Virus record (IMG/VR): IMGVR_UViG_2896607866_000006
From: a virus
Taxonomy: Duplodnaviria; Heunggongvirae; Uroviricota; Caudoviricetes
Length of the DNA stretch: 28,573 nt
Direction: 5' to 3' (one strand)
Shown here piece by piece: positions 1,553-18,965 of the stretch. The position numbers and the translations under genes are program-made. How positions within the stretch are numbered: the stretch's first letter is position 1; each line of letters starts with the position of its first letter. Under the pieces are notes generated by a model. That model saw only the letters and a program-made list of their open reading frames with translations. It was not told where the DNA came from and ran no database searches.

Positions 1553-1741
1553 TCACGAGGACTGAAGTTTCTCGCAATTAAAATTTATCAGTTTTACTTT
1601 CTGCTCTCTGGAAACGCCTGCTTCTTTTTTACCTGAGAGCATTTTTTCGCATTCTGATTTCGTTAGTTTAGATTTTGAATATCTTGTCCAGTTAGTAGGA
1701 GTGCCACCTTCCTTTTCAATAGTGGCGGTAATTTTATACAT
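1553..1741 (-). CDS. rcbA: Small Rac-type early protein (RcbA/YdaC-like), start MYKITAT
   Basis: ORF with GGAGG RBS 7 nt upstream of the ATG at 1741; position between xis and ralR as in Rac; the upstream extension of the 86-aa track ORF overlaps ralR and is rejected. Confidence 0.45.
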   Translation of the reverse strand: MYKITATIEKEGGTPTNWTRYSKSKLTKSECEKMLSGKKEAGVSREQKVKLINFNCEKLQSS

Positions 1742-2793: not shown

Positions 2794-5386
2794 TTGCATA
2801 TTCCTTAGCCCAGCGGGGCAGTGATAACGTCTTAATAGCTGGCCATTCATCGGTATTGAGGCAGTCAGCCAGGGTTCGCAGATTGCGGTGATATTCCAGC
2901 TGACCTGCCAGTTTTGCTTCTTCGCCCATCATGAAAATTTCAACCGGATAACGTCCGCATTCAATAGTTGTGCTGGCAACCAGAAAAACGAAAGTTGGCT
3001 GCACTCCAAACTGTGCTTCATAACCGTCACTGTAGAATGCATCCTGAACGTGATAGCGGTAGTCGTAATAAGCGGTTTTGAATCGTTGAATATCCGCCGT
3101 AGTTTTCACGTCCATGATCCAGTGAAATTCAGGGATAATTTTGTCCGGACGGCACCGACACAAAATTGCTGTTTCAGGATCTTCCCAGTAAATTGATGAT
3201 TCAGCGTGTCCGGCGCTTTCAACAAGCCATTGCCCCAGCGGCAAAGCCATAACGCTCTGATACATGAGTTCAATTTTCCGGCCTTCTTCGGCAGTGATAA
3301 CCGTTTTTCCTGTGCTTGCGCATTCCCTCAGAAACGCTTTCTCTTCTTCTTTTCCGGAGTTTGTCCGGCGGTTAAATTCAGGTGCTACGATAAAGCGGTT
3401 ACTGAATTCTTCCGGCTCAAGTACCCGGCAGTGGAAAGCGGTTCCTAAATCGAGCGTTTTTGTCTTTGTGGTGTCCACGGGGGCATTTTTACGCCACAAA
3501 TACAGTGCCGGAGTATCAGCAATGTCATCGAGCTGAGACTTACTGACACCGGGACCCGCGTGGTAATTCTCATTCGAAATTCCGTAATAAATACCTAGCT
3601 CTATGTCTTCTACGATTACGGGATCTGCGACTTCGCCAGTTTCATCACTGCAATCGCGATGCGGATCGCTGCCAGCATTCTCATTGTGCGGATGTTCAGC
3701 GCCTTCCATTTCCTCCGGATCATTTTCCTTAGCTTCAACCTGACTCTCTTCATCGAATGTTTCCTGGTATGTTGCGTCGCCCATCACCGCACCACAGTCA
3801 GGGCAGTTATCCCCGCCAGTCTGGCCGCAGGCATTGCAGGCTATTTCCGGTTCCTGTTGCACTACTGGCTCAGGTTGATTCATATCCGGGCTGGTTTTTT
3901 CCGTTTCTGGCTGGTTCTGGTACACACAATCGCGAGTCTGGATCCCCTTTACCCATTTCGGATCGTTCGGGTCGCTAATTCCGTCAACAAATTCACCACG
4001 TGATGCAGCAAGCAATTTATCGGCATCGACAGGATTTTTTGATGGAATGTTTTTCCGGGCTTCATGGAGTTCTGCCCGCAGTTCCTGATATTTCGCATCA
4101 ACAGAATTTACCTGTGACTGAGCATCCAGCGGCTGCGTGTCCTGATGATGTTCAGTTGCGTCCGGTTCCATTGTTTCAGCCTCTCCCTGTTCAACTGCCG
4201 TTGTTCCAGATGGTTGCGGTTTTTCTTCATCATCCTGTTTTCCTTCTTCTGTTACTCGCTGCGGCATCGGGGCAGAGGAGCGACCGCAGGCAATATCCAC
4301 GATTTCCGGATCAGGGTTGGCATGATCGGTTTCAGTCAGTACTTTGTTCAGATATTCAGTGACGTGCGCGGGGATGACCTCGATCCCAATTGGTGCTTCT
4401 TTTACGGACGCAACCACGATGGCGCGGGAATAATCCAGCCCGCCAGGCATGGTGATGAATTTGTCGCGGAAAACAGAAAAGGGCGGTTTATTTTCAGCGA
4501 TAATTTCCTCAATGCGTTTAGCGTGTGCCGGATGAAGGTTATAGATGTCCAGATCCATTGAACGGGCCAGTACGCCAGTGGCTACGTCCCGCGCCAGTGA
4601 CGTCAGATCGTGTACGAAACCTTCGCCGCGATCGGTGAGGTTTCCGCCGCCAGCATTAGCACCGGAAGCCGTGCGAGTGATGTGTGAAACACGATTACCC
4701 TTCATCCACTCTTTTGTCAGCAGTCCTCGATCGGTGTAGTCAGCGTTCAGGTATGCTTCGAAAAAAGCAGTTATCAGTCCCAGGTTTGAATTACCAGGAT
4801 TAGGGAAAACTTTGTCAGTGTCACGAACCAGTTTGTGGAGTTCGCGAATTTCCAGCGGGTCGAGCAGGCTGGTTTTGTGGGAAACAGCCAGGGCAGTAAC
4901 AGCCGGTAGTTCTTCAGCCCGAGCAATGTGTAATGCCTGGAGTCCGTCGCGTGAAACGTGCGTTACCGGTTTTTCGCTGCCGTGTTGAGCAAGCCAACGA
5001 ATGGGCAGTTCCTGGCCAGAAATTGGGAGTAGCATATTCTCCTCAATCTCAGTCATGTCTTCGCCGTTGACGTTGGTATTGCCTTGATAGTGAGCGTTGT
5101 CTGGTGCTGCTCCCGGTTTTAGTTCCCATGTCATGGAGTCTTTGCTGAGTTGATAGCGTTCACTCCAGGTAAAATCGATCTCACCTTCAGCGGGCAGGTC
5201 ATTAACGACAGGAAAATTCGTGGCAACAGCTTTAAAATAGCTGCTCAGTTTTTTACCTGACTTAACGATCAGGTAGTCCAGAGTGGCACAGGTCGATTCA
5301 AAATCGTTGCTTGCCCACAGGACGACGTCAGGTTCACCGGATGATTTTTTCGCTTTCCGTAACAGGAAGAGTGGTTTTGTGCTCAT
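2786..5386 (-). CDS. recE: Exodeoxyribonuclease VIII (RecE), 866 aa
   Basis: 866-aa ORF immediately upstream of and overlapping recT, acidic low-complexity central region and C-terminal nuclease domain; length equals the recalled K-12 RecE. Confidence 0.85.
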
Positions 5387-5487
5387 TGTTTTTTAACCTC
5401 AACTCAGATTAAAATTCGTTTTGTTCAGTGAATGATCTTGCCGGATACACACTGTTCATAGCCTGCGCCATACGCAGGCTATTTCTT

Positions 5488-5763
5488 TCAGATTTCACCT
5501 TTTAATTTCATTGCAATTAGAGTTGCCAGAAATTCGGCTTTTTTTTCTGCGGGCAGATTCTTTCCGATATGCACCAGGCACATTTTTTTGACACCTTCAT
5601 CAAGTGTTTTTACGTTGCCTGATGGACCATCGATATCAACCACAGTGAATGGGGTTTCTTTATTTTCTGTTTTAATTACGTAGCCAATGCGCTTTCCTTC
5701 CAGATTCACCTCGTGAACAATGTCATCGGTAGTTACAACAGTGGCTTCATAATTGGTAATCAT
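5488..5763 (-). CDS. racC: RacC-like small protein, 91 aa
   Basis: Start MITNYEATVV with AAGGAG RBS; position immediately upstream of recE as in Rac. Confidence 0.55.
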   Translation of the reverse strand: MITNYEATVVTTDDIVHEVNLEGKRIGYVIKTENKETPFTVVDIDGPSGNVKTLDEGVKKMCLVHIGKNLPAEKKAEFLATLIAMKLKGEI

Positions 5764-5837
5764 GTTTTTCTCCTTAATTAAGGTTGAGCGAATACCTGCC
5801 ATTTCTGGCATAAATTCAGTTTCGAATAGTCAATTAA

Positions 5838-6008
5838 TTAAAGTTCATGTGCCATCTGGTCTTTTTCGGCACAAGCTTCACTGCAATATTTTCTCGGTTC
5901 GTCTTTTGATAAAATCCCGTGCATGAAGTGAAGCATTCTTTCAATAGCTTTGCTTTCTTCAACGTCTTTTTTGCAAAGGTGGTAAGCACATTTTATTTTC
6001 TTAGTCAT
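5838..6008 (-). CDS. ydaE: YdaE-like small Cys-rich protein, 56 aa (not in ORF track)
   Basis: Hand translation of the minus strand: [56 protein letters not shown]; its ATG overlaps the kilR stop in an ATGA junction (translational coupling). Confidence 0.5.
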   Translation of the reverse strand: MTKKIKCAYHLCKKDVEESKAIERMLHFMHGILSKDEPRKYCSEACAEKDQMAHEL

Positions 6009-6229
6009 CACCATGACTCCGCCTTTACAGGTAAACCATCACGACCGAGGAAGACTTTAATCATGCGGTCAGTAATGCATGTTTTTGTGGTCAGGTTACG
6101 AATATATAGTTTTCGCTTTTTAATATTGTTTGCCGAGGCAATATATGTCCGGCCTTCATGAAGAACATAATCGCCAGGAGTCACACACTGACGTGGTATT
6201 TCATCAGTTCCGAAGTGATGTGCAATCAT
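6008..6229 (-). CDS. kilR: KilR-like cell-division inhibitor, 73 aa
   Basis: ORF starting [14 protein letters not shown]; order racC-ydaE-kilR-sieB is as recalled for Rac. Confidence 0.55.
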
Positions 6230-6670
6230 AATTATCTCCATTTTTACAAATGAACTTTGTTGATGCGGTGCCTGGTGCCTCCAGGTGACTGCAACCAGTT
6301 AACAATTACAGTCGGCTTTCCCACCCAAACCAATAAGGACTAACATGACTTTTAACTGTGCCACGTGCGCTTAGCCGCATTCACCGCATCACAAAATTCA
6401 CTTTAAAAAGGGCGGACATCAGCCGAACTTCAAGAAAAAAACTGATGCCGCCAGGACTACACACAGCAATGTCGTTATTTACAACCGGAGGCGCACTCCC
6501 ACCATTTAAATTTAACAGACAAGACCGACTCTTTATGGATATCGGAAATGCGCCTTCGTGTTGTGCCCGGTTTTATTTCACCACCTCCGGGCTTCGGTGG
6601 TCTCGGCTATACCCCTACAGCGAGAGCTTGTGTTAACATTTCAATACCCTTACAGTTGAGAGTTATTGAT

Positions 6671-7159
6671 ATGTTGGATGTATTTACTCCATTGTTGAAA
6701 CTTTTTGCTAACGAGCCACTCGAAATACTTATGTATACGATTATCATTTTTGGTCTCACTCTCTGGCTGATACCGAAAGAGTTTACTGTCGCATTCAATG
6801 CTTATACTGAAATACCTTGGCTCTTTCAGATTATCGTTTTTGCCTTTTCTTTCGTGGTCGCCATTTCCTTCTCAAGATTGCGAGCACATATTCAAAAGCA
6901 TTATTCATTACTACCAGAGCAACGAGTATTGCTTCGTTTATCTGAGAAAGAAATCGCTGTATTTAAAGATTTCCTTAAAACAGGAAATCTTATTATCACT
7001 TCTCCTTGCCGTAACCCGGTTATGAAAAAATTAGAACGGAAGGGCATCATTCAACATCAGAGTGATAGCGCAAACTGTTCTTATTATCTCGTCACCGAAA
7101 AATACTCCCATTTTATGAAGTTATTCTGGAACAGCAGGAGTAGACGTTTTAATCGTTAG
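6671..7159 (+). CDS. sieB: Superinfection exclusion protein SieB-like, 162 aa, membrane protein
   Basis: Start MLDVFTPLLKLF; two hydrophobic helices (IIIFGLTLWLI, LFQIIVFAFSFVVAISF); the upstream in-frame extension of the track ORF has no support. Confidence 0.6.
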   Translation: MLDVFTPLLKLFANEPLEILMYTIIIFGLTLWLIPKEFTVAFNAYTEIPWLFQIIVFAFSFVVAISFSRLRAHIQKHYSLLPEQRVLLRLSEKEIAVFKDFLKTGNLIITSPCRNPVMKKLERKGIIQHQSDSANCSYYLVTEKYSHFMKLFWNSRSRRFNR

Positions 7160-7311
7160 CTTACTGTGTGCTTCTCCAACCATCGGCGCGCACCAGTTTC
7201 GGTTTTAAATGTTTTGCTTTTGGTATACGTCATGGCAGTGAACGTTCCATCCTGGTTGGGGAACACGCCGCACACCAGGGATTCGTTGTTGCCGAGGTCG
7301 ATTTTTTGCAT
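7156..7311 (-). CDS. ydaF: YdaF-like small protein, 51 aa (not in ORF track)
   Basis: Hand translation MQKIDLGNNESLVCGVFPNQDGTFTAMTYTKSKTFKTETGARRWLEKHTVS; convergent with sieB with overlapping stops. Confidence 0.45.
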   Translation of the reverse strand: MQKIDLGNNESLVCGVFPNQDGTFTAMTYTKSKTFKTETGARRWLEKHTVS

Positions 7312-7321
7312 TTTGCGAATC

Positions 7322-7456
7322 TCACATCTTGTTGCTGTGTATAGCGACTTCTGCCTGCCAGAGATCCCAGTCGTTGCTGCGTAAAGCCTGCACAGCTTGG
7401 TTGTAAGTGATACCGCAACAATCCATCAAATACTGAACTACTTCGTAATGCACCAT
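7322..7456 (-). CDS. ydaG: YdaG-like small protein, 44 aa
   Basis: Internal start MVHYEVVQYLMDCCGITYNQAVQALRSNDWDLWQAEVAIHSNKM within the 60-aa track ORF. Confidence 0.45.
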   Translation of the reverse strand: MVHYEVVQYLMDCCGITYNQAVQALRSNDWDLWQAEVAIHSNKM

Positions 7457-7746
7457 CTTATCTCTCCCCTTAACGCCGGGTGGCGGAACTGAAACCTGCT
7501 GCACTGCAAAATCTGAACCCTGCCGTCATGTTCATACGCCTCGGGCTGGCTACTTAACCCCTGACCACTGCCTGGTAACTCGAAGTATTGCCCTGCGTTC
7601 TGTGGGGCGGGGTGGGTTGGTAGGTATATAATGTACTTTGTGTTCATTGATGTAAAGTACTTTAAGTACATTTTGTGTGTAAAAAAATGAGATGGGATAA
7701 AGTGAAGCACAAACCCGGAGGGGGACGCTACCGGATTTATGCTGGT

Positions 7747-8166
7747 TTAAGAGGCTTTTTGTTTTTTCTTTCGTGCTAGCTCTTCGTAAATTGCATTGTA
7801 CTTCTGTTTTTTCTCCTCAAGAGTTTTTAAAAGTTCATCTGTCTCACTGTCAGGGAGCTCGTCCAGAAGGTCAATGATGATTTTTTGTCTTGGATTTAAC
7901 TCCTGATAGAAACGTACCTGTCCACTTTCTTCTGTATCCTCTCCCAAAAGATAGGTTGGTGTTGTTCCAATGAGTGTTGCTAATTCCCTTAATTTCTCTC
8001 GGCGAGGAATTGTTTCGCCATTAAACCATTTGCTAACCGCTTTTGGTGTTAATTTCATTCGACGGGCAATTTCTGCCTGCCTTCCATGTTGTTCATAACC
8101 AGCGTTTTCACAGGCTAGCGCAAGCCTACTGGCGAACTCTTTACGCGCTTTATCTTCATGAACCAT
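7747..8166 (-). CDS. racR: Prophage repressor, XRE-family HTH (cI-like, RacR-like), 139 aa
   Basis: HTH segment QAEIARRMKLTPKAVSKWFNGETIP; divergent from a cro-like gene across a short repeat-containing intergenic region. Confidence 0.55.
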   Translation of the reverse strand: MVHEDKARKEFASRLALACENAGYEQHGRQAEIARRMKLTPKAVSKWFNGETIPRREKLRELATLIGTTPTYLLGEDTEESGQVRFYQELNPRQKIIIDLLDELPDSETDELLKTLEEKKQKYNAIYEELARKKKQKAS

Positions 8167-8245
8167 AAGTTCAATGATATTCGCTCTTGAATGTACTGTC
8201 AGTTCTGTTATAGCATGTACTCAAAGTTCACATTGTGAGGGTGAT
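8167..8245. promoter_or_regulatory. Divergent racR / ydaS promoter-operator region with repeated ATGTACT heptamers
   Basis: ATGTACT at 8191-8197 and 8214-8220, between divergently transcribed repressor and cro-like genes. Confidence 0.35.
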
Positions 8246-8500
8246 ATGAACCAGAAAACACTTGAAGATGTAATCAAAACTGTTCGCGTTTCTGTTGTGG
8301 CCGACGTTTGTGGTGTCAGCCAAAGAGCAATCTACAAATGGATGGATAACGGAAAATTGCCTCGCACAGAATATACCGGCGAAACAAATTACGCTGAAAA
8401 AATCGCTCATGCATCAAACGGATTATTTTCTGCTGATGTAATTTTAACTATTGGCAGAAATAAAACTACTACGAAAAAGCTGATGGGAGTTGATTCATGA
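8246..8500 (+). CDS. ydaS: Cro/cII-like HTH protein YdaS
   Basis: Start MNQKTLEDVIKTV with GAGGG RBS; HTH segment VADVCGVSQRAIYKWMDNGKLP; ATGA overlap with ydaT. An upstream alternative start at 8174 is possible. Confidence 0.55.
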   Translation: MNQKTLEDVIKTVRVSVVADVCGVSQRAIYKWMDNGKLPRTEYTGETNYAEKIAHASNGLFSADVILTIGRNKTTTKKLMGVDS

Positions 8501-10564: not shown

Positions 10565-11326
10565 ATGGAGACTGTTTTTGACGCACTGAAAGCAATGGGA
10601 AAAGCCACATCCATAGAACTTGCTGCGCGACTTGATATCAGTCGTGAAGAAGTGCTGAACGAACTATGGGAACTGAAAAAAGCTGGTTTCGTTGATAAAA
10701 GCGCGTACACCTGGCGTGTGGCTGATAACAACGTTCAGCAGGAACAGCCAATGCAGGCAGAACTGCCGGAAGAAACCACCACGGCAACTGTAGTGAAAAT
10801 CTCAGAGTGCGATTTAACCGCGACGATTGAACAACGCGGACCACAAACGGCGGATGAACTGGCTACGCTGTTCGGTACAACATCCCGCAAAGTTGCTTCA
10901 ACGCTGGCAATGGCAATCAGCAAAGGACGCCTGATTCGCGTAAACCAGAACGGTAAATTTCGTTACTGCATGCCGGGCGATAATTTACCAGCAGAGCCGA
11001 AAGCTGCATCGGTAGCGGAAACTGATGGTAAAGCCTTTCCTCAGCCAGCCGGTGTTGCGTTACCAGTACAGGAAGCGGCAACACAGGAAGATATTAAAAC
11101 AGAAACTGTGGCGGACATTGTGCAGTCGCTGCCATCGTTTACTGAAACGCAAGCGGATGACCTAGTTTTACCATCGCTGCATATGGCAAACCGCGAACTG
11201 CGTCGGGCGAAAAATCATGTCCAGAAGTGGGAGCGAGTCTGCGCCGCGCTGCGGGAGCTGAACAAGCACCGGGATATTGTCCGACAGATTGTCGATTCCT
11301 CCAGTCGTATTGTGTCGGAAAAGTGA
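10565..11326 (+). CDS. Hypothetical phage protein with N-terminal winged-helix-like region (YdaW-like)
   Basis: Start [13 protein letters not shown] with GGGAGG RBS; follows ydaV; the track ORF begins upstream at 10514 with no RBS. Confidence 0.4.
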
Positions 11327-11341
11327 TTGCCGGAGGCGCTT

Positions 11342-11758
11342 ATGGCAAAAGTTTTTACACAGGAAGAGCGTGAAAAAATTAAGGAGCAGGTTGTTGAGTT
11401 GGTACGCCAGAGTGGGCGCGAGACGTTAAGGCAACTGGAGGCCAAGACAGGTGCGACAAGATATCTGATGAGCATTCTTGCCAGAGAGTTGGTTGCCAGT
11501 GGCGATGTATACAACTCTGGCTATGGGTTATTCCCGTCTGAACAGGCTCGTAAGGATTGGAAAAACGCCCGCAAAAAACTATCCAGGGCAAAGGTGAAAA
11601 AAACGGTTGTGGTTGATCCTGACCTTATCTGGTCATTACCAGACGGAGAAATACGCCGCTATGACAGGCGTCAGAACATAATCTGTCGCGAGTGCCGGAA
11701 GAGTGAAGTTATGAAACGTGTACTGGCATTTTATCAAGGAAATCTTCGGTATTTATAG
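11342..11758 (+). CDS. Hypothetical phage protein, 138 aa
   Basis: ATG with GGAGG RBS 6 nt upstream; basic central stretch KDWKNARKKLSRAKVKK; the track ORF begins at 11327 on a non-ATG codon. Confidence 0.4.
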   Translation: MAKVFTQEEREKIKEQVVELVRQSGRETLRQLEAKTGATRYLMSILARELVASGDVYNSGYGLFPSEQARKDWKNARKKLSRAKVKKTVVVDPDLIWSLPDGEIRRYDRRQNIICRECRKSEVMKRVLAFYQGNLRYL

Positions 11759-11954
11759 ACGTTACTAGATCAAAGAGCATTAGTTCATATGTAAATTGAC
11801 ATTTTTCTGGCACAGGGGAGAGCTAGCGTGGTTGTCCGCTTTGTGCCAGGAGCGGAAGTAGCAAACCAGATTTTACTGAAGCTTGAGCAGAGATACCACC
11901 AACTGATGCCTATCAGTAATGGGGCTCTTGATGATTCAAATAAAAAAGATTAAA

Positions 11955-11983
11955 TTGATTAAGATTATTCTTACTTGATTAAT
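11955..11983 (+). promoter_or_regulatory. Candidate sigma70 promoter for the three-gene cassette (TTGATT, 17-nt spacer, ATTAAT)
   Basis: -35-like TTGATT at 11955-11960 and -10-like ATTAAT at 11978-11983 in an AT-rich leader about 70 bp upstream of the cassette start. Confidence 0.25.
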
Positions 11984-12055
11984 TGTTTTGCGCATGGGCT
12001 TGGAAAACCATGAATCAGATCTTCACTAGATAAAACAACGAACTATGGAGGAAGC

Positions 12056-13147
12056 GTGGGCGGCGAAACTAAGAATATTGATGAGATTGCAGGTATCATT
12101 TCCAGTAGAATTTTTGATGAGTTAGGCTGGAAAACCCAAAATACAACGGATATAAGTTGGGACTGTTGTTTGAGATCTCATCTAAACGCTAAACAACTTT
12201 TATCTGAAAACCCAAAAAAAACTCATCCTACGGATGTAGTCTTCAAATATAAAGATCCTTATTCAGATATAACTCAGTATATACAAACAGATTTAAAATC
12301 TTATTGTGCCAGCACGCTTGACGGTACAAAATCAATATTGAACACTGTACGAAGTTTATCACAACAGGTAGCTTGCGCGCCAAGAAGTCCTGAGTGGCGG
12401 CGTCTATTTGTTGACAGCACAAATGAGAAATATCAAGTTAACGGCCTACTTTTTATATATAATCATGACAATAAATATGACTCTGATTTAATTGAGAAAT
12501 TAAATGGAGCAGCCACAGCAAGTTATGATTTTCCAGAGAACTCTGTGATTGCCGTTTTTGACCCAACTATGATCAGATTTTTACTAGATGTTACAGAACA
12601 CATCGAGACTAGAAGAGGAATTACTGACAAAGTAACACAAGAAACAAATATGTTATGGCAAAAAATTCCTGAGATAGAGAACTGTACATATTTTTACCCT
12701 GACAAACATAATAAAATAGCAACGAAAGGGAAAATCCTTCCAGCCACAATTGAAATGATAACATCTGGGATGATTTTTTACTCATATGAACACGAATATA
12801 TTAGAAATGATGGTGGCGATAGAATAAGAAATAAAATATTGAATATATTCTGGAAGGAAGAGGTTGATTCCAGTAACCACTTTATATTTCTTTTAGAGTA
12901 TATATTTAACTATCAATTACTCAATCAATTTGACAAAATATTTGTTATAACTCCGTTCTCATCACACTCAAGCATTCATTTGCAATCCGCCATTAATGAT
13001 TACATAGGAATATATTCTTTCACTCAATCTCATATAGAAACGTTAAAGGAAAAAATAGTATCCATTCCTTTTGTTAATCAAAAGCTATCTATATTTGAGT
13101 ACCAGGTTGCCAGCAAGCAGGTGAATAGAAAATGTCACTTTTCATAA
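12056..13147 (+). CDS. Cassette gene A: 363-aa protein of unknown function, possible N-terminal PD-(D/E)xK-like motif
   Basis: GTG start with GGAGG RBS 4 nt upstream; AT-rich codon usage unlike flanking prophage genes; HPTDVVFKY ... YIQTDLKSY has the spacing of a D ... (D/E)xK nuclease core (inference only). Confidence 0.55.
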   Translation: MGGETKNIDEIAGIISSRIFDELGWKTQNTTDISWDCCLRSHLNAKQLLSENPKKTHPTDVVFKYKDPYSDITQYIQTDLKSYCASTLDGTKSILNTVRSLSQQVACAPRSPEWRRLFVDSTNEKYQVNGLLFIYNHDNKYDSDLIEKLNGAATASYDFPENSVIAVFDPTMIRFLLDVTEHIETRRGITDKVTQETNMLWQKIPEIENCTYFYPDKHNKIATKGKILPATIEMITSGMIFYSYEHEYIRNDGGDRIRNKILNIFWKEEVDSSNHFIFLLEYIFNYQLLNQFDKIFVITPFSSHSSIHLQSAINDYIGIYSFTQSHIETLKEKIVSIPFVNQKLSIFEYQVASKQVNRKCHFS

Positions 13148-13157
13148 GGAGTATGAC

Positions 13158-14405
13158 ATGAATAAATATCAAGCTACGTTGTTTTCAAACGAAAGTGACA
13201 TTTATACCGCCCTCCACTCTAACAGTGCAAAAATCACAGATGTTACATTAAGGAAAATCGCCTTCAATAGAGGGATAATTTTCCCATCTAACTTATCAAA
13301 AGAGGTATTGATAGAAAAATTATCAGACCTGCCATTTTCATATAATCACATCAGAGAAGTACAAGATAAACTGGCAACCAAACCCAGCCAAGACGTCTTC
13401 TCAGTAAAACGTATATATGAAGAATTTGATATAGAGAAACTCTATGACGTTGTAAACAAAGTGAAAGAAAATAGACCCAAGTTGCTAGGGCATGAGAAAA
13501 TTGATCATTACTCAGGCTTGCAAACCTATCATATATCTATTGATTATACTGAGTTTGATTTTAGAAGGGGTAAGTTTCAGCAGAAAAAATTGTACAGTGG
13601 GAGTATAGTTTTTATAGTAAAAAAAGGATATGTTTCAGTAAGATATAACTATACGCCACGCATTTCAGAAATTCTCAAGCAAATAATTGATACATATTCA
13701 TCAACAGTTTGTAACAACATAGTTGTCAACGAAATAGATTTATCAAGTATCGTCGATACAGATCTTAGGAATATTTTTGCTGTTCATCTTTATGATTTTG
13801 ATGGAAATTATAAAAAAACAGGACTTGAATATGCTGGTCTTGAAAAGGTTAGAGTAAGCAGAATAAAAACATCTCTGGATATTAATGGAGATAATCTCGA
13901 AGGAAATAATAACGAAGAAACACAAGAGTTATTAAACAAGATTTCACCTTCTACAGATAACGAAAATGATGATGACATTAATAATCAGGAAATGGCATCT
14001 GACGATGATGAAAACCTAACTTTTAACATTAACAATGCCGCGTATGATGGCCTATCATTAGTGAACGCACCTCAAATTAAGGAACTGTGCAGTGATGGGT
14101 TTTATCGAAGCTTAATTCGATGGAAGTCATTTTCCTCAGTAGTTAAGAATCATACTATAACTTTTGAACTTAGTTTCGATGATAAATATCTTGGGAAAAA
14201 TATAAAATTCAGAGCGTTATACAAAGAAAGCAACTCTGCATCCGCAGAGAGAGAAAAACTCAGTGACGCAGACTTTGATCAAGTCATGAAACAATTAGAA
14301 GATAAAATATTTTTGATTAATGACTTTATTATCGAAGAGCATACCAAGCGATACCCAGTAACGAAAGCTATGTCTTGCGAGACTTTGAATCAGGAGGCTG
14401 GATGA
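13158..14405 (+). CDS. Cassette gene B: 415-aa protein of unknown function with an acidic low-complexity linker
   Basis: ATG 10 nt after gene A stop with AAGGAG RBS; acidic linker NEETQELLNKISPSTDNENDDDINNQEMASDDDEN separating two regions; no Walker or other recognisable catalytic motif. Confidence 0.6.
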   Translation: MNKYQATLFSNESDIYTALHSNSAKITDVTLRKIAFNRGIIFPSNLSKEVLIEKLSDLPFSYNHIREVQDKLATKPSQDVFSVKRIYEEFDIEKLYDVVNKVKENRPKLLGHEKIDHYSGLQTYHISIDYTEFDFRRGKFQQKKLYSGSIVFIVKKGYVSVRYNYTPRISEILKQIIDTYSSTVCNNIVVNEIDLSSIVDTDLRNIFAVHLYDFDGNYKKTGLEYAGLEKVRVSRIKTSLDINGDNLEGNNNEETQELLNKISPSTDNENDDDINNQEMASDDDENLTFNINNAAYDGLSLVNAPQIKELCSDGFYRSLIRWKSFSSVVKNHTITFELSFDDKYLGKNIKFRALYKESNSASAEREKLSDADFDQVMKQLEDKIFLINDFIIEEHTKRYPVTKAMSCETLNQEAG

Positions 14406-15058
14406 TGATAAAGGTAAAAATTTATAAAGCAGAAAAGGATATAACTAAAAGTGAGTTATTACATAAAGTAAATGACAACCTCTATGATGAAGATAAAGGA
14501 TATGGTTTTCAAATCATTAATAACTCTGAAGTGCTTAAACTAAGATTTACCATGAGAAGCATTAGCAAGCAAAGCTTAGAATATGCTAATGGCGAGCGTT
14601 CAGAGGTTGAAATAGCAACTTACTTAAATGTGGACTTTGGCGTCAGACAAGGGAAAAAAATCATACTATATGCCACTAATCCTCCATTAAGTATGAAAGT
14701 GCCTTATACTATGGTGCAAAAACTATTTGGTGAAGATAGTGGCTTGAGACCAGTAGAATTTGATCTGAGAAAAATTGTAAATGGTCTTTCTGAGGGCTTT
14801 GACATCAAGATAAAATCCATGTCTCTATCTAATATCTCTGTTGATCCTTTTACTTTAGCAAAGACAAAAATAGTAAGCTCAAAGAATCTCCAAGAAATTT
14901 ATCAGAATAAATACATGAATAGTTCGGCCGTTTTTGATTCCGTACATTTCTTCGTTAACGGAATTGAAACGGAATTATCTAGGACGGGTAGATTCCGTGT
15001 GAGAGAGAGTCAGCTTCCAACACTTTTATCCATCTTAGAAACTTTCAGAATTTTGTGA
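14402..15058 (+). CDS. Cassette gene C: 218-aa protein of unknown function
   Basis: Start MMIKVKIYK with GGAGG RBS; ATGA overlap with gene B stop; followed by an intrinsic terminator. Confidence 0.55.
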   Translation: MMIKVKIYKAEKDITKSELLHKVNDNLYDEDKGYGFQIINNSEVLKLRFTMRSISKQSLEYANGERSEVEIATYLNVDFGVRQGKKIILYATNPPLSMKVPYTMVQKLFGEDSGLRPVEFDLRKIVNGLSEGFDIKIKSMSLSNISVDPFTLAKTKIVSSKNLQEIYQNKYMNSSAVFDSVHFFVNGIETELSRTGRFRVRESQLPTLLSILETFRIL

Positions 15059-15074
15059 AATATATAAGGAACTC

Positions 15075-15102
15075 AGGCCTACTTCGTCAGTAGGCCCCTT
15101 TT
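15075..15102 (+). terminator. Rho-independent terminator closing the three-gene cassette
   Basis: aggcctac / gtaggcc stem followed by cccTTTT, 17 bp after the gene C stop. Confidence 0.6.
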
Positions 15103-15612
15103 CCGGTTTGTACTTATCTAGTCATCGATTTGATCGTAATGATTCACACAGGATGCTGTTAGCAATGTCCGCTCTTCGCTCAAAGCGGACTAAAATGTTG
15201 GCTTGTTTCTGACTTAGAGCATTTAAGGAAGTGCTGGTGGTGACTGGTTGTTGTGTTCCATTTCTACAGAATAAAATCACAGAAACTATACCCAATAGTT
15301 GTATTGAATCACTGACGAGACAGCCTCATATTTATCAGGACTGGTGTGCGTCTAATACAGGGGGTTGTCGTGCTGGTTCTCAAATGTGCGCTGGCTATTG
15401 CGGCTGTAATGGCAATTTATTGTCTTGCTGTTGTTCTTATGGAGCGGCTTTCTGATTGATTACATACTGGCTAGAAAAAAGGTGTTACCTTGGTTTATCT
15501 TTGTCCGGCAAGGTGCGCTCATTAATCTTAAGTAAATTTATTGCTCAAGTATTCAGATTACTTCTTATGGTTGAAGTCTCCTGTCAATGTAGAACCAATA
15601 TATTTACAAAAA

Positions 15613-15642
15613 TGAGACCCGTCGGGGATAGCCCTGCCGGGT
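15613..15642 (-). terminator. Putative intrinsic terminator downstream of the YeaR-like gene
   Basis: agacccg / cgggtct stem; on the minus strand it is followed by a T-run (plus-strand A-run 15607-15612). Confidence 0.4.
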
Positions 15643-15673
15643 CTGACTGTTAAAGCATTTTTAATATGATCAT

Positions 15674-16012
15674 CTATTTTTTGGTGCTATAGACTTTTTC
15701 GCCCGAAAAGTCTGGAGCGACCCAAAAGTTAATATTAAACTGAGCATCATCGCTTAGTTCAACACGGTGCCAGTATTGTGGTGGGCTTGTTGCAAAAGCG
15801 CCAGCATTAATGACTACTTTTATCTCCGGTTCAGTAGCATTCTCATCAGTAAAACCATAATATGTTACAGTGCCTTCCATTACGCACAACTGCCCAAAAA
15901 CACCTGCTGCTGTATTATGATGTGTTAATAACGCTGAAGGTACGTTCTCTTTTGTGAAGAACGGAGTTGAGCGTTTGATTACCCAATCTTTAGGAATTCT
16001 CTTGTGTGTCAT
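15674..16012 (-). CDS. DUF1971 / YeaR-like small cupin-type protein, 112 aa
   Basis: Start MTHKRIPKDW with GGAGGAGGTGG RBS; segments RSTPFFTKENVPSA, GFTDENATEPE and FNINFWVAPD resemble recalled E. coli YeaR (RSTPFW ... FNIDFFVAPE). Confidence 0.45.
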   Translation of the reverse strand: MTHKRIPKDWVIKRSTPFFTKENVPSALLTHHNTAAGVFGQLCVMEGTVTYYGFTDENATEPEIKVVINAGAFATSPPQYWHRVELSDDAQFNINFWVAPDFSGEKVYSTKK

Positions 16013-16021
16013 AACCACCTC

Positions 16022-16056
16022 CTCCAAAAGATGCATTAAAAATGCATCTTTTGGAG
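16022..16056. promoter_or_regulatory. Perfect 15-bp-arm palindrome overlapping the RBS of the YeaR-like gene
   Basis: ctccaaaagatgcat (taaaa) atgcatcttttggag; the minus-strand GGAGG Shine-Dalgarno lies inside one arm; no flanking T-run, so not a terminator. Confidence 0.4.
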
Positions 16057-16825
16057 GGTTATGTCAAGCTGTTATGAAACACATAATTGATATGTTGATT
16101 AGAGGAGAAGATAGAATAAATATGGTTGTTTTTCGTATAACTATTTGTTTTACTTTTAGTTTATGCATTCTGTGTGTTAGGAATAAGTTATTAAAGTTTA
16201 ATCAAAAAATCTCGATGTAGTCCACATAGATTACTGTTACTGAACCTTATTGTGTGTATTAGTTGTGTTCTGAAATTTCAGCTTAATTATTTATGATGTA
16301 TTTTTTAACGATAAATATTTTCCCAGGATACCTTTACTGTGTATATAAATAAATTATATACGCATAAATAATGTAAAGGCGTCCTTTTAGATATATCTTA
16401 TCAAATGTTAATGACTTGAGTGGGAAATATGATTCCAGCAACTTATCATGTGGCTACTTTATAAAAATAATGCCCATATAAAACAACAAGCGAAAAGGAT
16501 TACGGATAAAAAAGGAGCGAGATGTGCGAACTTGTTATTTTCCATGTTTAACCACCTTAAATAATTGATGATGACGGGATGATTGCATCTGTAATGCTTT
16601 TATTGAAATGTTATGATAAAAAAGAACTTTTGCATAACATTAAAATGTAATTTATCTAATCGTTTTTAATAATAAGTGTCGTATTTCTATCCTTGTACCA
16701 GCTATTTGATATGTAGTGTTTGTTCATGCTATGTGGGGCTTTACACCATAGCCAGTTTATTTATACTTTATTCGTCAGCCTGAACAACTGGCATCTGCTG
16801 CGCTGCGCCATCGAGAGATTGAGAA

Positions 16826-17425
16826 ATGGCGCATATACAACTGGTCAAACAAACCTCTTCTGGTTTACTTCTCCCGGCGACGCCGGAGAGTTGCGATTTT
16901 CTGCATCAAATCAAAATAGGTGAGTGGATACACGCAGACTTTAAGCGTGTGCGTAACTACGCATTCCACAAGCGTTTTTTCAAACTCCTGCAACTGGGAT
17001 TCGATTACTGGACTCCGGTCGGTGGGGCGATCACGCCTCGCGAACGAGAACTGCTGTCTGGTTTCGTTGATTACCTGTGCGAATCAGTTGGTCGGGAACA
17101 CACGCCAGCCCTGAGTGATGCCGCAGAGCAATACCTTAACACCGTTGCGACTCGTAGAACCCGGGATACGGCGTTGCTAAAGTCGTTTGAGGCTTTCCGC
17201 GAGTGGGTAACCATTCAGGCCGGATTTTACACCGAGCATATTTATCCGGACGGTAGCCGTGGGCGTCGGGCAAAATCCATCGCTTTTGCGAATATGGACG
17301 AAGTCGAGTTTCAGCAGGTTTATAAATCTGTACTGAATGTGTTGTGGAACTGGATTCTGTTCCGTAAATTCTCCTCTCAGGAGGAAGTTGAAAATGTGGC
17401 CGCACAACTACTGGAGTTTGCGTAA
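16826..17425 (+). CDS. Hypothetical lambdoid nin-region protein, 199 aa
   Basis: Upstream of and coupled (TAATG) to a ybcO-like gene; first ORF after the AT-rich non-coding region. Confidence 0.45.
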   Translation: MAHIQLVKQTSSGLLLPATPESCDFLHQIKIGEWIHADFKRVRNYAFHKRFFKLLQLGFDYWTPVGGAITPRERELLSGFVDYLCESVGREHTPALSDAAEQYLNTVATRRTRDTALLKSFEAFREWVTIQAGFYTEHIYPDGSRGRRAKSIAFANMDEVEFQQVYKSVLNVLWNWILFRKFSSQEEVENVAAQLLEFA

Positions 17426-18707: not shown

Positions 18708-18965
18708 GGGCTGGTTTATTGTATGCCAAATGATTATTAAAAAGGTTGTGTTAATAACAAAATCCGAAATAATATGCCTGCATATTTTTATCTTGCTTAT
18801 ATTCTGCATATTGTGCATAGCAGGCTCATCCCTGCAATCAAAACTGTATGATGAGTATTTTTTGTTTTCCTTTTTTCCAGTCATCTGATGATGACCTGCT
18901 TCTTTTTAATCCGGATCGACATCAGTTTTTTAAGTAAGCGCCCCGAGAAGTACGTAGCGTAAGGA

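What the first reader, a model, noticed from the sequence alone, without database searches (positions are those of the whole stretch)
11955..15102. AT-rich three-gene cassette of unknown function in the nin-region slot of a Rac-type prophage: candidate undescribed accessory or anti-phage system
Three same-strand ORFs (363, 415 and 218 aa) form a compact operon: GTG/ATG starts with good RBSs, a 10-nt A-B gap, an ATGA-overlapped B-C junction, and a dedicated intrinsic terminator at 15075-15102. Hand counts on sampled 60-nt lines give roughly 30-35 % GC inside the cassette against roughly 50-57 % in flanking prophage genes, so it looks like a horizontally acquired moron. It sits between the replication genes and the ybcO/Q genes, a slot where lambdoid phages commonly carry accessory cargo. 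None of the three proteins shows a Walker A/B, helicase, HNH, TIR, SIR2 or transmembrane signature, so I cannot place it in any multi-gene defence family I know.
Basis: partly seen in the sequence, partly recalled or inferred. Interest (0 to 1): 0.88.

Follow-up and report, generated by a model that had tools for sequence, protein, structure and literature searches.

The report
Known 3HP anti-phage cassette, GAPS4-related
The three AT-rich genes are real, but they are a divergent copy of the already validated "3HP" anti-phage defence system, and comparison here suggests a nuclease guided by two ring-forming DNA-binding proteins, like the DNA-break-sensing system GAPS4.

Summary
Three co-oriented ORFs (363, 415 and 218 aa) form a tight AT-rich operon in the variable slot between the replication genes and the Q-like genes of a Rac-type prophage.

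"Undescribed" does not hold. All three proteins match the PADLOC Hp1, Hp2 and Hp3 models in order. They align to the three proteins of pFR109 ("hp+hp+hp", Rousset 2022), which protects E. coli against phage P1, at 33%, 25% and 22% identity.

The triad is colinear in 77 of 80 species-level loci from many phyla. The 3.36-kb block (11833-15190) is also 97% identical on Enterobacter, Citrobacter and Klebsiella plasmids.

Three results go beyond the literature I could search:
- Hp1 is homologous to the GAPS4a PD-(D/E)xK nuclease. The invariant HPxD60...D79-L-K81 motif lines up with GAPS4a's essential Asp.
- Hp2 is a distant full-length homologue of GAPS4b.
- Predicted structures of both Hp2 and Hp3 have the RdgC toroidal DNA-binding fold.

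Best model (inferred): an Hp2/Hp3 RdgC-fold ring senses DNA ends or breaks and licenses the Hp1 DNase, as shown experimentally for GAPS4.

Verdict: a new member of a known kind. Interest is moderate, because it yields a testable mechanism for 3HP.

The parts
11833..12055 (+). Upstream non-coding leader that travels with the cassette; presumed native promoter region
   Evidence: The block shared at 96.8% identity with Enterobacter, Citrobacter and Klebsiella plasmids starts at window 11833 (query 534 of 11300-16300). No sigma-70 match of at least 9/12 was found upstream of A on the + strand. The best candidate by eye is TTGATG-N17-TAAATT at 11928-11956 (8/12, inference only). The GC drop begins around 11935.
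12056..13147 (+). Gene A = Hp1 (363 aa): GAPS4a-type PD-(D/E)xK nuclease, predicted effector. Candidate catalytic residues are E4, H57, D60, D79 and K81.
   Evidence: - PADLOC Hp1 E 5e-41.
- 33% identity to pFR109 Hp1, E 9e-49.
- All 71 homologues carry precomputed Pfam PF26115, and some sources name them 'GAPS4 PD-(D/E)XK nuclease domain-containing protein'.
- Invariant H57, P58, D60, D79, L80, K81, S82 and Y83 in 43 sequences.
- Hp1-family profile against GAPS4a-RiKo: 44.7 bits, E 6e-16; hhalign probability 96.4%.
- D60 aligns with the GAPS4a-RiKo Asp49 of the HGxD motif, which the preprint reports as required for protection.
13158..14405 (+). Gene B = Hp2 (415 aa): GAPS4b-like protein. It has an N-terminal helical SAP/HeH-like domain (about residues 12-72), an RdgC-fold body and an acidic disordered insert (244-289).
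   Evidence: - PADLOC Hp2 E 9.6e-11, N-terminal half only.
- 25% identity to pFR109 Hp2 over residues 9-207.
- AF2 model pLDDT 75.8, with a disordered stretch at 244-289.
- Hp2 profile against GAPS4b: 24.4 bits E 7e-10 (MAVP-R), 13.6 bits E 1.4e-6 (RiKo); hhalign 89.5% over 338 columns.
- Confirmed on a database GAPS4 locus, E 4e-5.
- The acidic insert is conserved family-wide.
14402..15058 (+). Gene C = Hp3 (218 aa, pI 9.2): stand-alone RdgC/Iml3/CENP-L-fold protein. It is the component that GAPS4 lacks.
   Evidence: - PADLOC Hp3 E 3.7e-11.
- 22% identity to pFR109 Hp3, E 2e-12.
- AF2 model pLDDT 91.5.
- Foldseek: RdgC 2owy/2owl E 1e-5, probability 1.0, TMq 0.54-0.56.
- 266 clusters at 50% identity; every full-length protein among the 150 best is a stand-alone protein of about 211-237 aa, the few shorter entries look like fragments.
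- No sequence similarity to Hp2 or GAPS4b.
15076..15102 (+). Hairpin plus short U-tract; probable intrinsic terminator of the operon
   Evidence: dG -17.1 kcal/mol, z -3.2, and 1 of 200 shuffles folds as well. The consensus scan did not call it because only 4 U follow the stem.
15103..15190 (.). Right-hand end of the transferred block
   Evidence: Plasmid homology ends at window 15190. Homology to other E. coli prophages that carry different cargo resumes at about 15166-15175.

Best explanation
The cassette is a divergent member of the 3HP (Rst_3HP) anti-phage defence family. It is carried as a self-contained 3.36-kb mobile block in the variable slot between the replication genes and the Q-like genes of a Rac-type prophage.

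Shown here:
- All three genes are homologous, in the same order, to the experimentally validated P2-hotspot system pFR109.
- The triad is an obligate, conserved unit across phyla.
- Hp1 is a GAPS4a-type PD-(D/E)xK nuclease with an invariant HPxD...DLK motif.
- Hp2 is a distant full-length homologue of GAPS4b.
- The predicted structures of both Hp2 and Hp3 have the RdgC toroidal DNA-binding fold.

Inferred mechanism:
- Hp2 and Hp3 assemble into an RdgC-like ring or horseshoe around DNA. This would be a heterodimeric counterpart of the GAPS4b2 ring, much as Iml3-Chl4 and CENP-L-CENP-N are heterodimeric versions of the same fold.
- Hp1 docks on the helical N-terminal domain of Hp2.
- Free DNA ends or breaks produced during infection load or open the ring and license Hp1 to degrade DNA non-selectively.
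- Phage replication then stops at the cost of the infected cell (abortive infection), as shown experimentally for GAPS4.
- The conserved acidic disordered insert of Hp2 may act as an autoinhibitory DNA mimic. This is speculation.
For: Membership of 3HP:
- PADLOC Hp1, Hp2 and Hp3 hits.
- The PADLOC Hp1 model is pFR109 Hp1 itself (792 bits).
- BLASTP to the pFR109 proteins: E 9e-49, 7e-12 and 2e-12.
- pFR109 protects against P1 (PMC9122126).

Obligate triad: 77 of 80 loci are colinear.

Mobility and hotspot.

Nuclease:
- Motif conservation.
- PF26115 / GAPS4 naming.
- Profile matches to GAPS4a.
- D60 aligns with the Asp of the HGxD motif that is required for GAPS4 protection.

Hp2 and GAPS4b.

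RdgC fold of Hp2 and Hp3, by two methods.

Published background:
- RdgC, RexA and Iml3-Chl4 are DNA-binding rings or horseshoes (PMC11077077).
Against: - No phenotype exists for this variant. It shares only 22-33% identity with the validated system.
- pFR109 protected against only 1 of 8 phages, which is narrower than GAPS4.
- The Hp2-GAPS4b link is weak by sequence (13.6-24.4 bits).
- The Hp2-Hp3 heterodimer, the ring and the Hp1 docking site are not modelled here, because no multimer prediction was available.
- The RdgC similarity rests on AF2 models (B pLDDT 75.8).
- The catalytic motif differs from GAPS4a (DxK versus SxK; HP versus HG).
- GAPS4 works without any Hp3, so the extra subunit may change the trigger or the logic.
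- GAPS4a-RiKo, GAPS4b-RiKo and GAPS4b-MAVP-R were hand-transcribed from supplementary CIF files. The a and b matches were cross-checked on a database locus that is 94% identical to GAPS4b-RiKo; GAPS4b-MAVP-R, which gives the strongest Hp2 score, has no such check.
- No convincing promoter was found.
Confidence: 0.7

Rival explanations
1. It is a defence system of the 3HP family but uses a different logic from GAPS4. For example, the RdgC-fold subunits might recognise a specific phage DNA structure, a replication or recombination intermediate or a phage protein, with Hp1 cutting phage DNA selectively without killing the host.
For: - The validated 3HP protected only against P1, whereas GAPS4 is broad.
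- 3HP always has a third subunit that GAPS4 lacks.
- The catalytic motif differs.
- For RexA, an RdgC-fold exclusion protein, DNA binding was not strictly required for exclusion.
Against: Hp1 and Hp2 are homologous to both GAPS4 components. Conservation of the core machinery makes a shared trigger the simpler assumption. No data here bear on selectivity.
Confidence: 0.2
2. It is a recombination or replication accessory module that serves the prophage or plasmid itself: a nuclease plus RdgC-like RecA or fork modulators. This would resemble the lambda nin-region recombination genes (Orf/NinB, Rap/NinG) rather than a defence system.
For: - RdgC is a recombination-associated DNA-binding protein that inhibits RecA.
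- The cassette sits in the nin-equivalent region.
- On plasmids it lies near psiB/parB.
Against: - A three-gene homologue confers phage resistance.
- The triad occurs in chromosomes of many phyla without a phage context, in P2 defence hotspots, and in a slot that holds AbiH and similar cargo in other prophages.
- Only 11 of 5426 complete E. coli genomes carry it, which is not what a core phage function would show.
Confidence: 0.07
3. It acts mainly as an addiction or stabilisation module: a toxic nuclease held in check by Hp2/Hp3. Any phage effect would be secondary.
For: - On plasmids it neighbours hok and relE.
- According to the GAPS4 preprint's discussion, GAPS4 incurs autoimmunity when over-expressed.
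- It moves as a compact mobile block.
Against: - Neither GAPS4 gene protects without the other. This fits a complex whose parts must act together, though it does not exclude a toxin-antitoxin arrangement.
- The tight translational coupling and conserved 1:1:1 gene set fit a structural complex.
- This reading is not exclusive with abortive-infection defence.
Confidence: 0.08
4. It is silent or decaying cargo of a defective prophage with no current function.
For: - The prophage is degraded: IS66 copies and truncated genes are present in this and related genomes.
- No strong promoter was detected.
Against: - All three ORFs are intact and at least 99.8% identical in 10 other E. coli genomes, and about 97% identical on plasmids of other genera.
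- Ribosome-binding sites and translational coupling are preserved.
Confidence: 0.05

Closest known systems
3HP / Rst_3HP (pFR109 'hp+hp+hp', E. coli E1114 P2-like prophage hotspot; Rousset et al. 2022, PMC9122126)
   Same: It has the same three genes in the same order and on the same strand. All three proteins are homologous (33%, 25% and 22% identity) and hit the PADLOC Hp1/2/3 models. It is also prophage-borne cargo.
   Different: - This copy is very divergent.
- Hp2 is 56 aa longer and has a larger acidic insert. Only its N-terminal half matches by BLASTP or the PADLOC model.
- It sits in a Rac-type lambdoid slot and on plasmids, not in the P2 hotspot.
- No phenotype has been measured for this variant.
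- A 2024 survey stated that 3HP has no recognisable domain.
GAPS4 (GAPS4a + GAPS4b; Mahata et al., bioRxiv 10.1101/2023.03.28.534373 and 10.1101/2025.09.07.674715)
   Same: - Hp1 is homologous to GAPS4a over about 210 N-terminal residues, including the essential Asp.
- Hp2 is distantly homologous to GAPS4b along its full length.
- The nuclease gene comes first and the partner second.
- GAPS4b is predicted to form a ring, which fits the RdgC fold found here for Hp2.
   Different: - GAPS4 has two genes or a fusion and no Hp3.
- Its motif is HGxD-SxK, against HPxD-DLK here.
- The C-terminal third of Hp1 does not align.
- The GAPS4 papers do not mention 3HP or RdgC.
RdgC (E. coli / P. aeruginosa recombination-associated toroidal DNA-binding protein, PDB 2owl / 2owy)
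   Different: - There is no detectable sequence similarity (about 8% identity; no Pfam hit for B or C at E up to 1).
- RdgC is a homodimer with no nuclease partner.
- Hp3 is about 80 aa shorter.
- Hp2 has an extra N-terminal helical domain and an acidic insert.
Lambda RexA (RexAB exclusion) and the Iml3-Chl4 / CENP-L-CENP-N kinetochore heterodimers
   Same: They share the RdgC-type fold. RexA shows this fold already used in prophage-encoded phage exclusion. Iml3-Chl4 shows that a small and a large paralogue can form a heterodimeric DNA-binding horseshoe, which is the arrangement proposed for Hp3 and Hp2.
Shedu and Hachiman (PD-(D/E)xK nuclease defence systems that respond to DNA ends or aberrant DNA states)
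   Same: The proposed logic is the same: sensing free DNA ends or damage activates a PD-(D/E)xK effector (discussed).
   Different: The sensor modules are unrelated (Shedu N-terminal clamp; Hachiman helicase). No homology was detected here, and PADLOC returned only the Hp1/2/3 models.

Membership tests
3HP / Rst_3HP | Three adjacent co-oriented genes in the order Hp1-Hp2-Hp3 | tested here: met
   A, B and C are on the + strand with a 10-nt gap and a 4-nt overlap. The same order occurs in 77 of 80 related loci.
3HP / Rst_3HP | Each protein matches the corresponding family HMM (PADLOC PDLC03004, PDLC03005, PDLC03006) | tested here: met
   E 5e-41, 9.6e-11 and 3.7e-11, each as the only hit. The Hp2 match covers profile positions 6-209 of 359 only. 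The Hp1 model was verified to be the pFR109 protein.
3HP / Rst_3HP | Direct homology to the experimentally validated proteins (pFR109) | tested here: met
   BLASTP: 33% identity E 9e-49; 25% E 7e-12 (residues 9-207); 22% E 2e-12. The sequences come from Table S2A.
3HP / Rst_3HP | Confers phage resistance (P1) when expressed from its native promoter | not testable with these tools
   This is known only for pFR109. It needs EOP assays with the cloned 11833-15190 fragment.
GAPS4 | Two-gene (GAPS4a+GAPS4b) or fused single-gene architecture | tested here: not met
   This cassette and all related loci have a third gene. A bona fide GAPS4 locus (Ewingella plasmid, L084) has two genes and no Hp3-like ORF.
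GAPS4 | GAPS4a-type PD-(D/E)xK nuclease domain with the HGxD-SxK motif | tested here: inconclusive
   Domain homology is met: PF26115 on all homologues, 44.7 bits E 6e-16, hhalign 96.4%, and GAPS4a hits PADLOC Hp1 at E 3e-5. The motif is HPxD...DLK, not HGxD...SxK.
GAPS4 | GAPS4b partner protein | tested here: inconclusive
   Hp2 profile against GAPS4b: 24.4 and 13.6 bits (E 7e-10 and 1.4e-6 for single comparisons); hhalign 89.5% over 338 columns; E 4e-5 on a database locus. The similarity is real but weak. Hp3 shows none.
GAPS4 | Non-selective DNase activated by DNA breaks; a2b2 complex | not testable with these tools
   This is known for GAPS4 only. No multimer prediction or biochemistry was available here.
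PD-(D/E)xK nuclease superfamily (gene A) | Conserved acidic residue followed about 20 residues later by (D/E)xK | tested here: met
   D60 and D79-L80-K81 are invariant in 43 sequences that go down to 26% identity; E4 is nearly invariant.
PD-(D/E)xK nuclease superfamily (gene A) | Restriction-endonuclease-like alpha/beta fold | not tested
The local Pfam copy lacks PF26115.
RdgC family (genes B and C) | Sequence membership in a Pfam RdgC family | tested here: not met
   No significant Pfam hit for B or C at E up to 1; the only match was HeH at E 0.15 for B. No PDB sequence hit. Identity to RdgC in structural alignments is about 8%.
RdgC family (genes B and C) | RdgC fold | tested here: met
RdgC family (genes B and C) | Ring-shaped dimer that encircles DNA | not testable with these tools
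   Only monomer predictions were possible. C is basic (pI 9.2) and the B core has pI 8.4, which fits DNA binding but does not prove it.

The most novel reading that the evidence does not exclude
3HP and GAPS4 are sister branches of one defence superfamily. Its sensor is an RdgC-type toroidal DNA clamp: a homodimeric GAPS4b2 ring in GAPS4 and a heterodimeric Hp2-Hp3 ring in 3HP. Together with lambda RexA, this would make the RdgC fold a recurrent DNA-state sensor in bacterial immunity. The extra Hp3 subunit and the acidic Hp2 insert would retune what DNA end or structure is recognised. None of the papers I could search states the 3HP-GAPS4 or the GAPS4b-RdgC connection.
Probability: 0.4. Interest if true: 0.6.

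Novelty: new member of a known kind. Interest (0 to 1): 0.4.

Why it matters
The cassette itself is not a new system. Annotation pipelines based on PADLOC or DefenseFinder should label it 3HP. RefSeq still calls two or three of its proteins hypothetical.

The analysis gives 3HP its first concrete, testable mechanism. The only earlier experimental fact was "three domain-less genes that protect against P1". Here it becomes a GAPS4a-type nuclease plus two RdgC-fold DNA-binding subunits.

The work also links 3HP to GAPS4, for which DNA-break sensing, abortive DNA degradation, sensitisation to quinolones and inhibition by homing endonucleases have been shown. If the link holds, strains and plasmids that carry this cassette, including clinical Enterobacter plasmids, may show altered quinolone sensitivity and phage-therapy outcomes.

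The slot after the DUF977 gene of Rac-like prophages also emerges as a defence hotspot worth mining.

Tried and rejected
- Pfam and NCBIfam scans of A, B and C gave nothing significant. A Pfam scan of 43 Hp1 homologues also gave nothing, so the local Pfam copy lacks PF26115, which the protein database lists for them.
- PHROGs gave only 'unknown function' families.
- PDB sequence-profile searches for all three families found no relatives.
- Paralogy of Hp2 and Hp3 was tested twice by profile-profile comparison and was not detectable. Their kinship is structural only.
- Hp3 against GAPS4b showed no similarity.
- The afdb50 fold library was unavailable, so I could not look for named GAPS4b-like models.
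- tblastn of GAPS4b against plasmids gave only two close homologues, too few to build a GAPS4b profile.
- The promoter scan found no candidate upstream of A.
Folding supports the hairpin.
- Rfam found nothing inside the cassette.
- I considered enrichment of defence genes around the 80 loci and did not run it, because a validated homologue already exists.
- I considered membership of GAPS4 proper and rejected it on architecture (three genes).


Full report
**1. The observation**

The three ORFs exist as described: A at 12056-13147 (GTG, 363 aa), B at 13158-14405 (415 aa) and C at 14402-15058 (218 aa). Each has a Shine-Dalgarno sequence 5-7 nt upstream. The A-B gap is 10 nt and the B-C junction is an ATGA overlap.

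GC content is 0.30-0.36 across 12001-15000, against 0.49-0.54 in the replication genes upstream.

The proposed terminator is a real, stable hairpin at 15076-15096 (dG -17.1 kcal/mol, z -3.2). Its U-tract is short, and the consensus scan missed it.

The surroundings are a Rac-type prophage at ttcA. Upstream are intR, xisR, ralR/RalA, recET, kilR, sieB, a DnaC-like gene, and DUF1627 and DUF977 genes. Downstream are DUF1971, DUF1367, DUF1364 and a DUF1133/Q-like gene.

**2. What it is**

A PADLOC scan gave one hit per protein, in order: Hp1 (5e-41), Hp2 (9.6e-11, N-terminal half only) and Hp3 (3.7e-11). These models represent the "3HP" system of Rousset et al. 2022.

- Table S2A lists it as pFR109 "hp + hp + hp" and gives the sequences.
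- The PADLOC Hp1 model matches pFR109 protein 1 end to end at 792 bits.
- BLASTP of A, B and C against the pFR109 proteins gives 33% identity (E 9e-49), 25% (E 7e-12, residues 9-207) and 22% (E 2e-12).

The cassette is therefore a divergent member of a validated defence family, not an undescribed one. Pfam, NCBIfam, PHROGs and PDB sequence searches add no functional name.

**3. Conservation and mobility**

A scan of one genome per species returned 80 loci that encode Hp1 relatives. They come from Proteobacteria, Verrucomicrobia, Acidobacteria, Cyanobacteria, Desulfobacterota and other groups.

With iterated profiles, 77 of the 80 loci carry Hp1, Hp2 and Hp3 colinear on one strand. Median lengths are 332, 375 and 228 aa. 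Of the three exceptions, two loci end before the next gene and one has a split Hp2.

Hp3 relatives form 266 clusters at 50% identity. Every full-length protein among the 150 best hits is a stand-alone protein of about 211-237 aa; the few shorter entries look like fragments.

This exact variant is present in only 11 of 5426 complete E. coli genomes. Window 11833-15190 is 96.8% identical to a block on Enterobacter, Citrobacter and Klebsiella plasmids. There it lies beside hok, relE and the psiB-parB region.

In other E. coli lambdoid prophages the flanks are conserved. Homology ends at about 11747-11856 and resumes at about 15166. The slot itself carries other cargo: AbiH plus a hypothetical gene, SMEK plus a methyltransferase, DUF5677, or KilA-N plus Hok.

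**4. The parts**

*Gene A (Hp1).*
- All 71 database homologues carry precomputed Pfam PF26115, and some sources name them "GAPS4 PD-(D/E)XK nuclease domain-containing protein". The local Pfam copy lacks this model.
- In a 43-sequence alignment that goes down to 26% identity, H57, P58, D60, D79, L80, K81, S82 and Y83 are invariant and E4 is nearly so. This is a D...(D/E)xK signature.
- I obtained the GAPS4 sequences from the AF3 CIF supplements of the GAPS4 preprint.
- The Hp1-family profile matches GAPS4a-RiKo at 44.7 bits (E 6e-16 for a single comparison). hhalign gives 96.4% probability over 206 columns.
- GAPS4a hits PADLOC Hp1 as its only match (E 3e-5).
- On a database-derived GAPS4 locus (Ewingella plasmid L084) the profile finds the GAPS4a ORF at E 6e-15.
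- D60 aligns with the GAPS4a-RiKo Asp49 of the HGxD motif. The preprint reports that this conserved Asp is required for protection (D59A in the Vibrio system, and likewise in the E. coli system).

*Gene B (Hp2).*
- The AF2 model has pLDDT 75.8 and an acidic disordered insert at 244-289. The insert is a family-wide feature.
- The Hp2-family profile matches GAPS4b-MAVP-R (24.4 bits, E 7e-10) and GAPS4b-RiKo (13.6 bits, E 1.4e-6).
- It aligns to a two-sequence GAPS4b alignment over 338 columns at 89.5% probability.
- It finds the GAPS4b ORF of L084 at E 4e-5.

*Gene C (Hp3).*
- The AF2 model has pLDDT 91.5.
- Foldseek independently ranks the two RdgC structures first (E 1e-5, probability 1.0, TMq 0.54-0.56), then Iml3 and CENP-L.
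- Hp3 has no detectable sequence similarity to Hp2 or GAPS4b.
- GAPS4 loci have no Hp3.

**5. How it most likely works**

Published background:
- RdgC forms ring-shaped dimers that bind DNA non-specifically through a basic pore.
- RexA, a prophage exclusion protein, shares the fold.
- Iml3-Chl4 shows the fold working as a heterodimer of a small and a large subunit on DNA (PMC11077077).
- GAPS4 degrades phage and host DNA and is triggered by DNA breaks from nalidixic acid or a T6SS DNase. It is abortive and is attenuated by DNA-binding homing endonucleases.

Combining these with the homologies above, I propose the following. This is inferred, not shown.
- Hp2 and Hp3 form an RdgC-like ring or horseshoe on DNA, the heterodimeric equivalent of GAPS4b2.
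- Hp1 docks on Hp2.
- DNA ends or breaks that arise during infection license non-selective DNA degradation.

C is basic (pI 9.2). B is basic outside its acidic insert (core pI 8.4). The insert could be an autoinhibitory DNA mimic, which is speculation.

My confidence by level:
- About 0.9 that this is a 3HP-family system.
- About 0.75 that this copy defends against some phages.
- About 0.45 that the GAPS4-like trigger and ring model is correct.

**6. Rivals**

- A different sensing logic within the same family. pFR109 has a narrow P1-only range, the extra subunit is obligate and the motif differs.
- A recombination accessory module for the element itself. RdgC biology and the nin-like position favour it. 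The validated phenotype, the phage-independent distribution and the rarity in E. coli count against it.
- An addiction module. The hok and relE neighbours and the reported GAPS4 autoimmunity favour it. It is not exclusive with abortive defence.
- Silent cargo. Intact, highly conserved ORFs count against it.

**7. Comparison and novelty**

The cassette passes every testable membership criterion for 3HP. It fails the architectural criterion for GAPS4 while sharing both GAPS4 components. It has the RdgC fold without RdgC sequence membership.

In the literature I could search, the only functional description of 3HP is three genes of no clear domain that protect against P1. A 2024 survey lists Rst_3HP among systems with no recognisable domain family. 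The other papers that mention it do so only in system listings. The GAPS4 papers mention neither 3HP nor RdgC.

The locus is therefore a new member of a known kind. What is potentially new is the inferred 3HP-GAPS4-RdgC connection.

**8. Caveats**

- GAPS4a-RiKo, GAPS4b-RiKo and GAPS4b-MAVP-R were transcribed by hand from three-letter CIF records. The a and b matches were cross-checked on a database locus that is 94% identical to GAPS4b-RiKo. GAPS4b-MAVP-R, which gives the strongest Hp2 score, has no such check.
- Fold matches rest on AF2 monomer models.
- The afdb50 library was unavailable.
- No promoter was identified.

Noticed in passing
window 18934-24267: There are two 100%-identical IS66-family copies in inverted orientation (arms 18934-21368 and 21688-24122, 319 nt apart). 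An extra 145-nt inverted match joins 21224-21368 and 24123-24267. The ORFs are IS66 TnpC (533 aa), TnpB (115 aa) and an HTH TnpA. The IS copies replace the stretch right of the Q-like gene where related Rac prophages carry the lysis genes.
   Followed up: partly
window 25189-26904 (- strand) and 27033-27215 (+): An IpaH-type type III secretion effector (LRR_TTSS + NEL E3 ligase domains) lies next to a CssrB 'Shigella sRNA B' Rfam match. The window is probably from Shigella or EIEC rather than a commensal E. coli.
   Followed up: partly
window 1557-1735 (+): A full-length RalA sRNA (antitoxin of the Rac RalR type I toxin-antitoxin pair) scores 225 bits. This confirms the Rac identity of the prophage.
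   Followed up: no
window 15103-17000: Low GC continues to the right of the cassette (29% at 16001-16500). This stretch includes an oppositely oriented DUF1971/TehB-like gene (15674-16036) and about 600 nt without a convincing gene. The 15167-15475 segment is conserved next to different cargo in other prophages, and its function is unknown.
   Followed up: no
window ~11747-11856 to ~15166 (slot), compared with E. coli genomes; L082: In other E. coli lambdoid prophages the same slot after the DUF977 gene holds AbiH + hypothetical, SMEK + class I methyltransferase, DUF5677, KilA-N + Hok, or unnamed genes. It looks like an uncatalogued defence hotspot of Rac-like prophages.
   Followed up: partly
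L083 (CP043768.1 Enterobacter hormaechei plasmid) 5001-8358: The same 3.36-kb cassette (96.8% identical) sits on mobilizable or conjugative plasmids of clinical Enterobacter, Citrobacter and Klebsiella isolates. It lies between hok/relE and the psiB-parB region. In one plasmid (OW970321.1) and in one E. coli chromosome (strain 30COLEC, ISApl1) the match is split in two by an insertion.
   Followed up: partly
window 13887-14024 (Hp2 residues 244-289) and B homologues in L002-L081: Hp2 carries a strongly acidic, predicted-disordered insert (16 D/E and 2 K/R in residues 236-292, 57 aa). It recurs at about 60% of the protein length across the whole family (median maximum net charge -10 per 30 aa). 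It is not reported for GAPS4b.
   Followed up: partly
L073 (Photorhabdus noenieputensis) and L069 (Nannocystis bainbridge): In these two loci the Hp2 gene is split into two ORFs (frameshift or stop) while Hp1 is intact. Hp3 is also intact in L073. These may be decaying copies.
   Followed up: no
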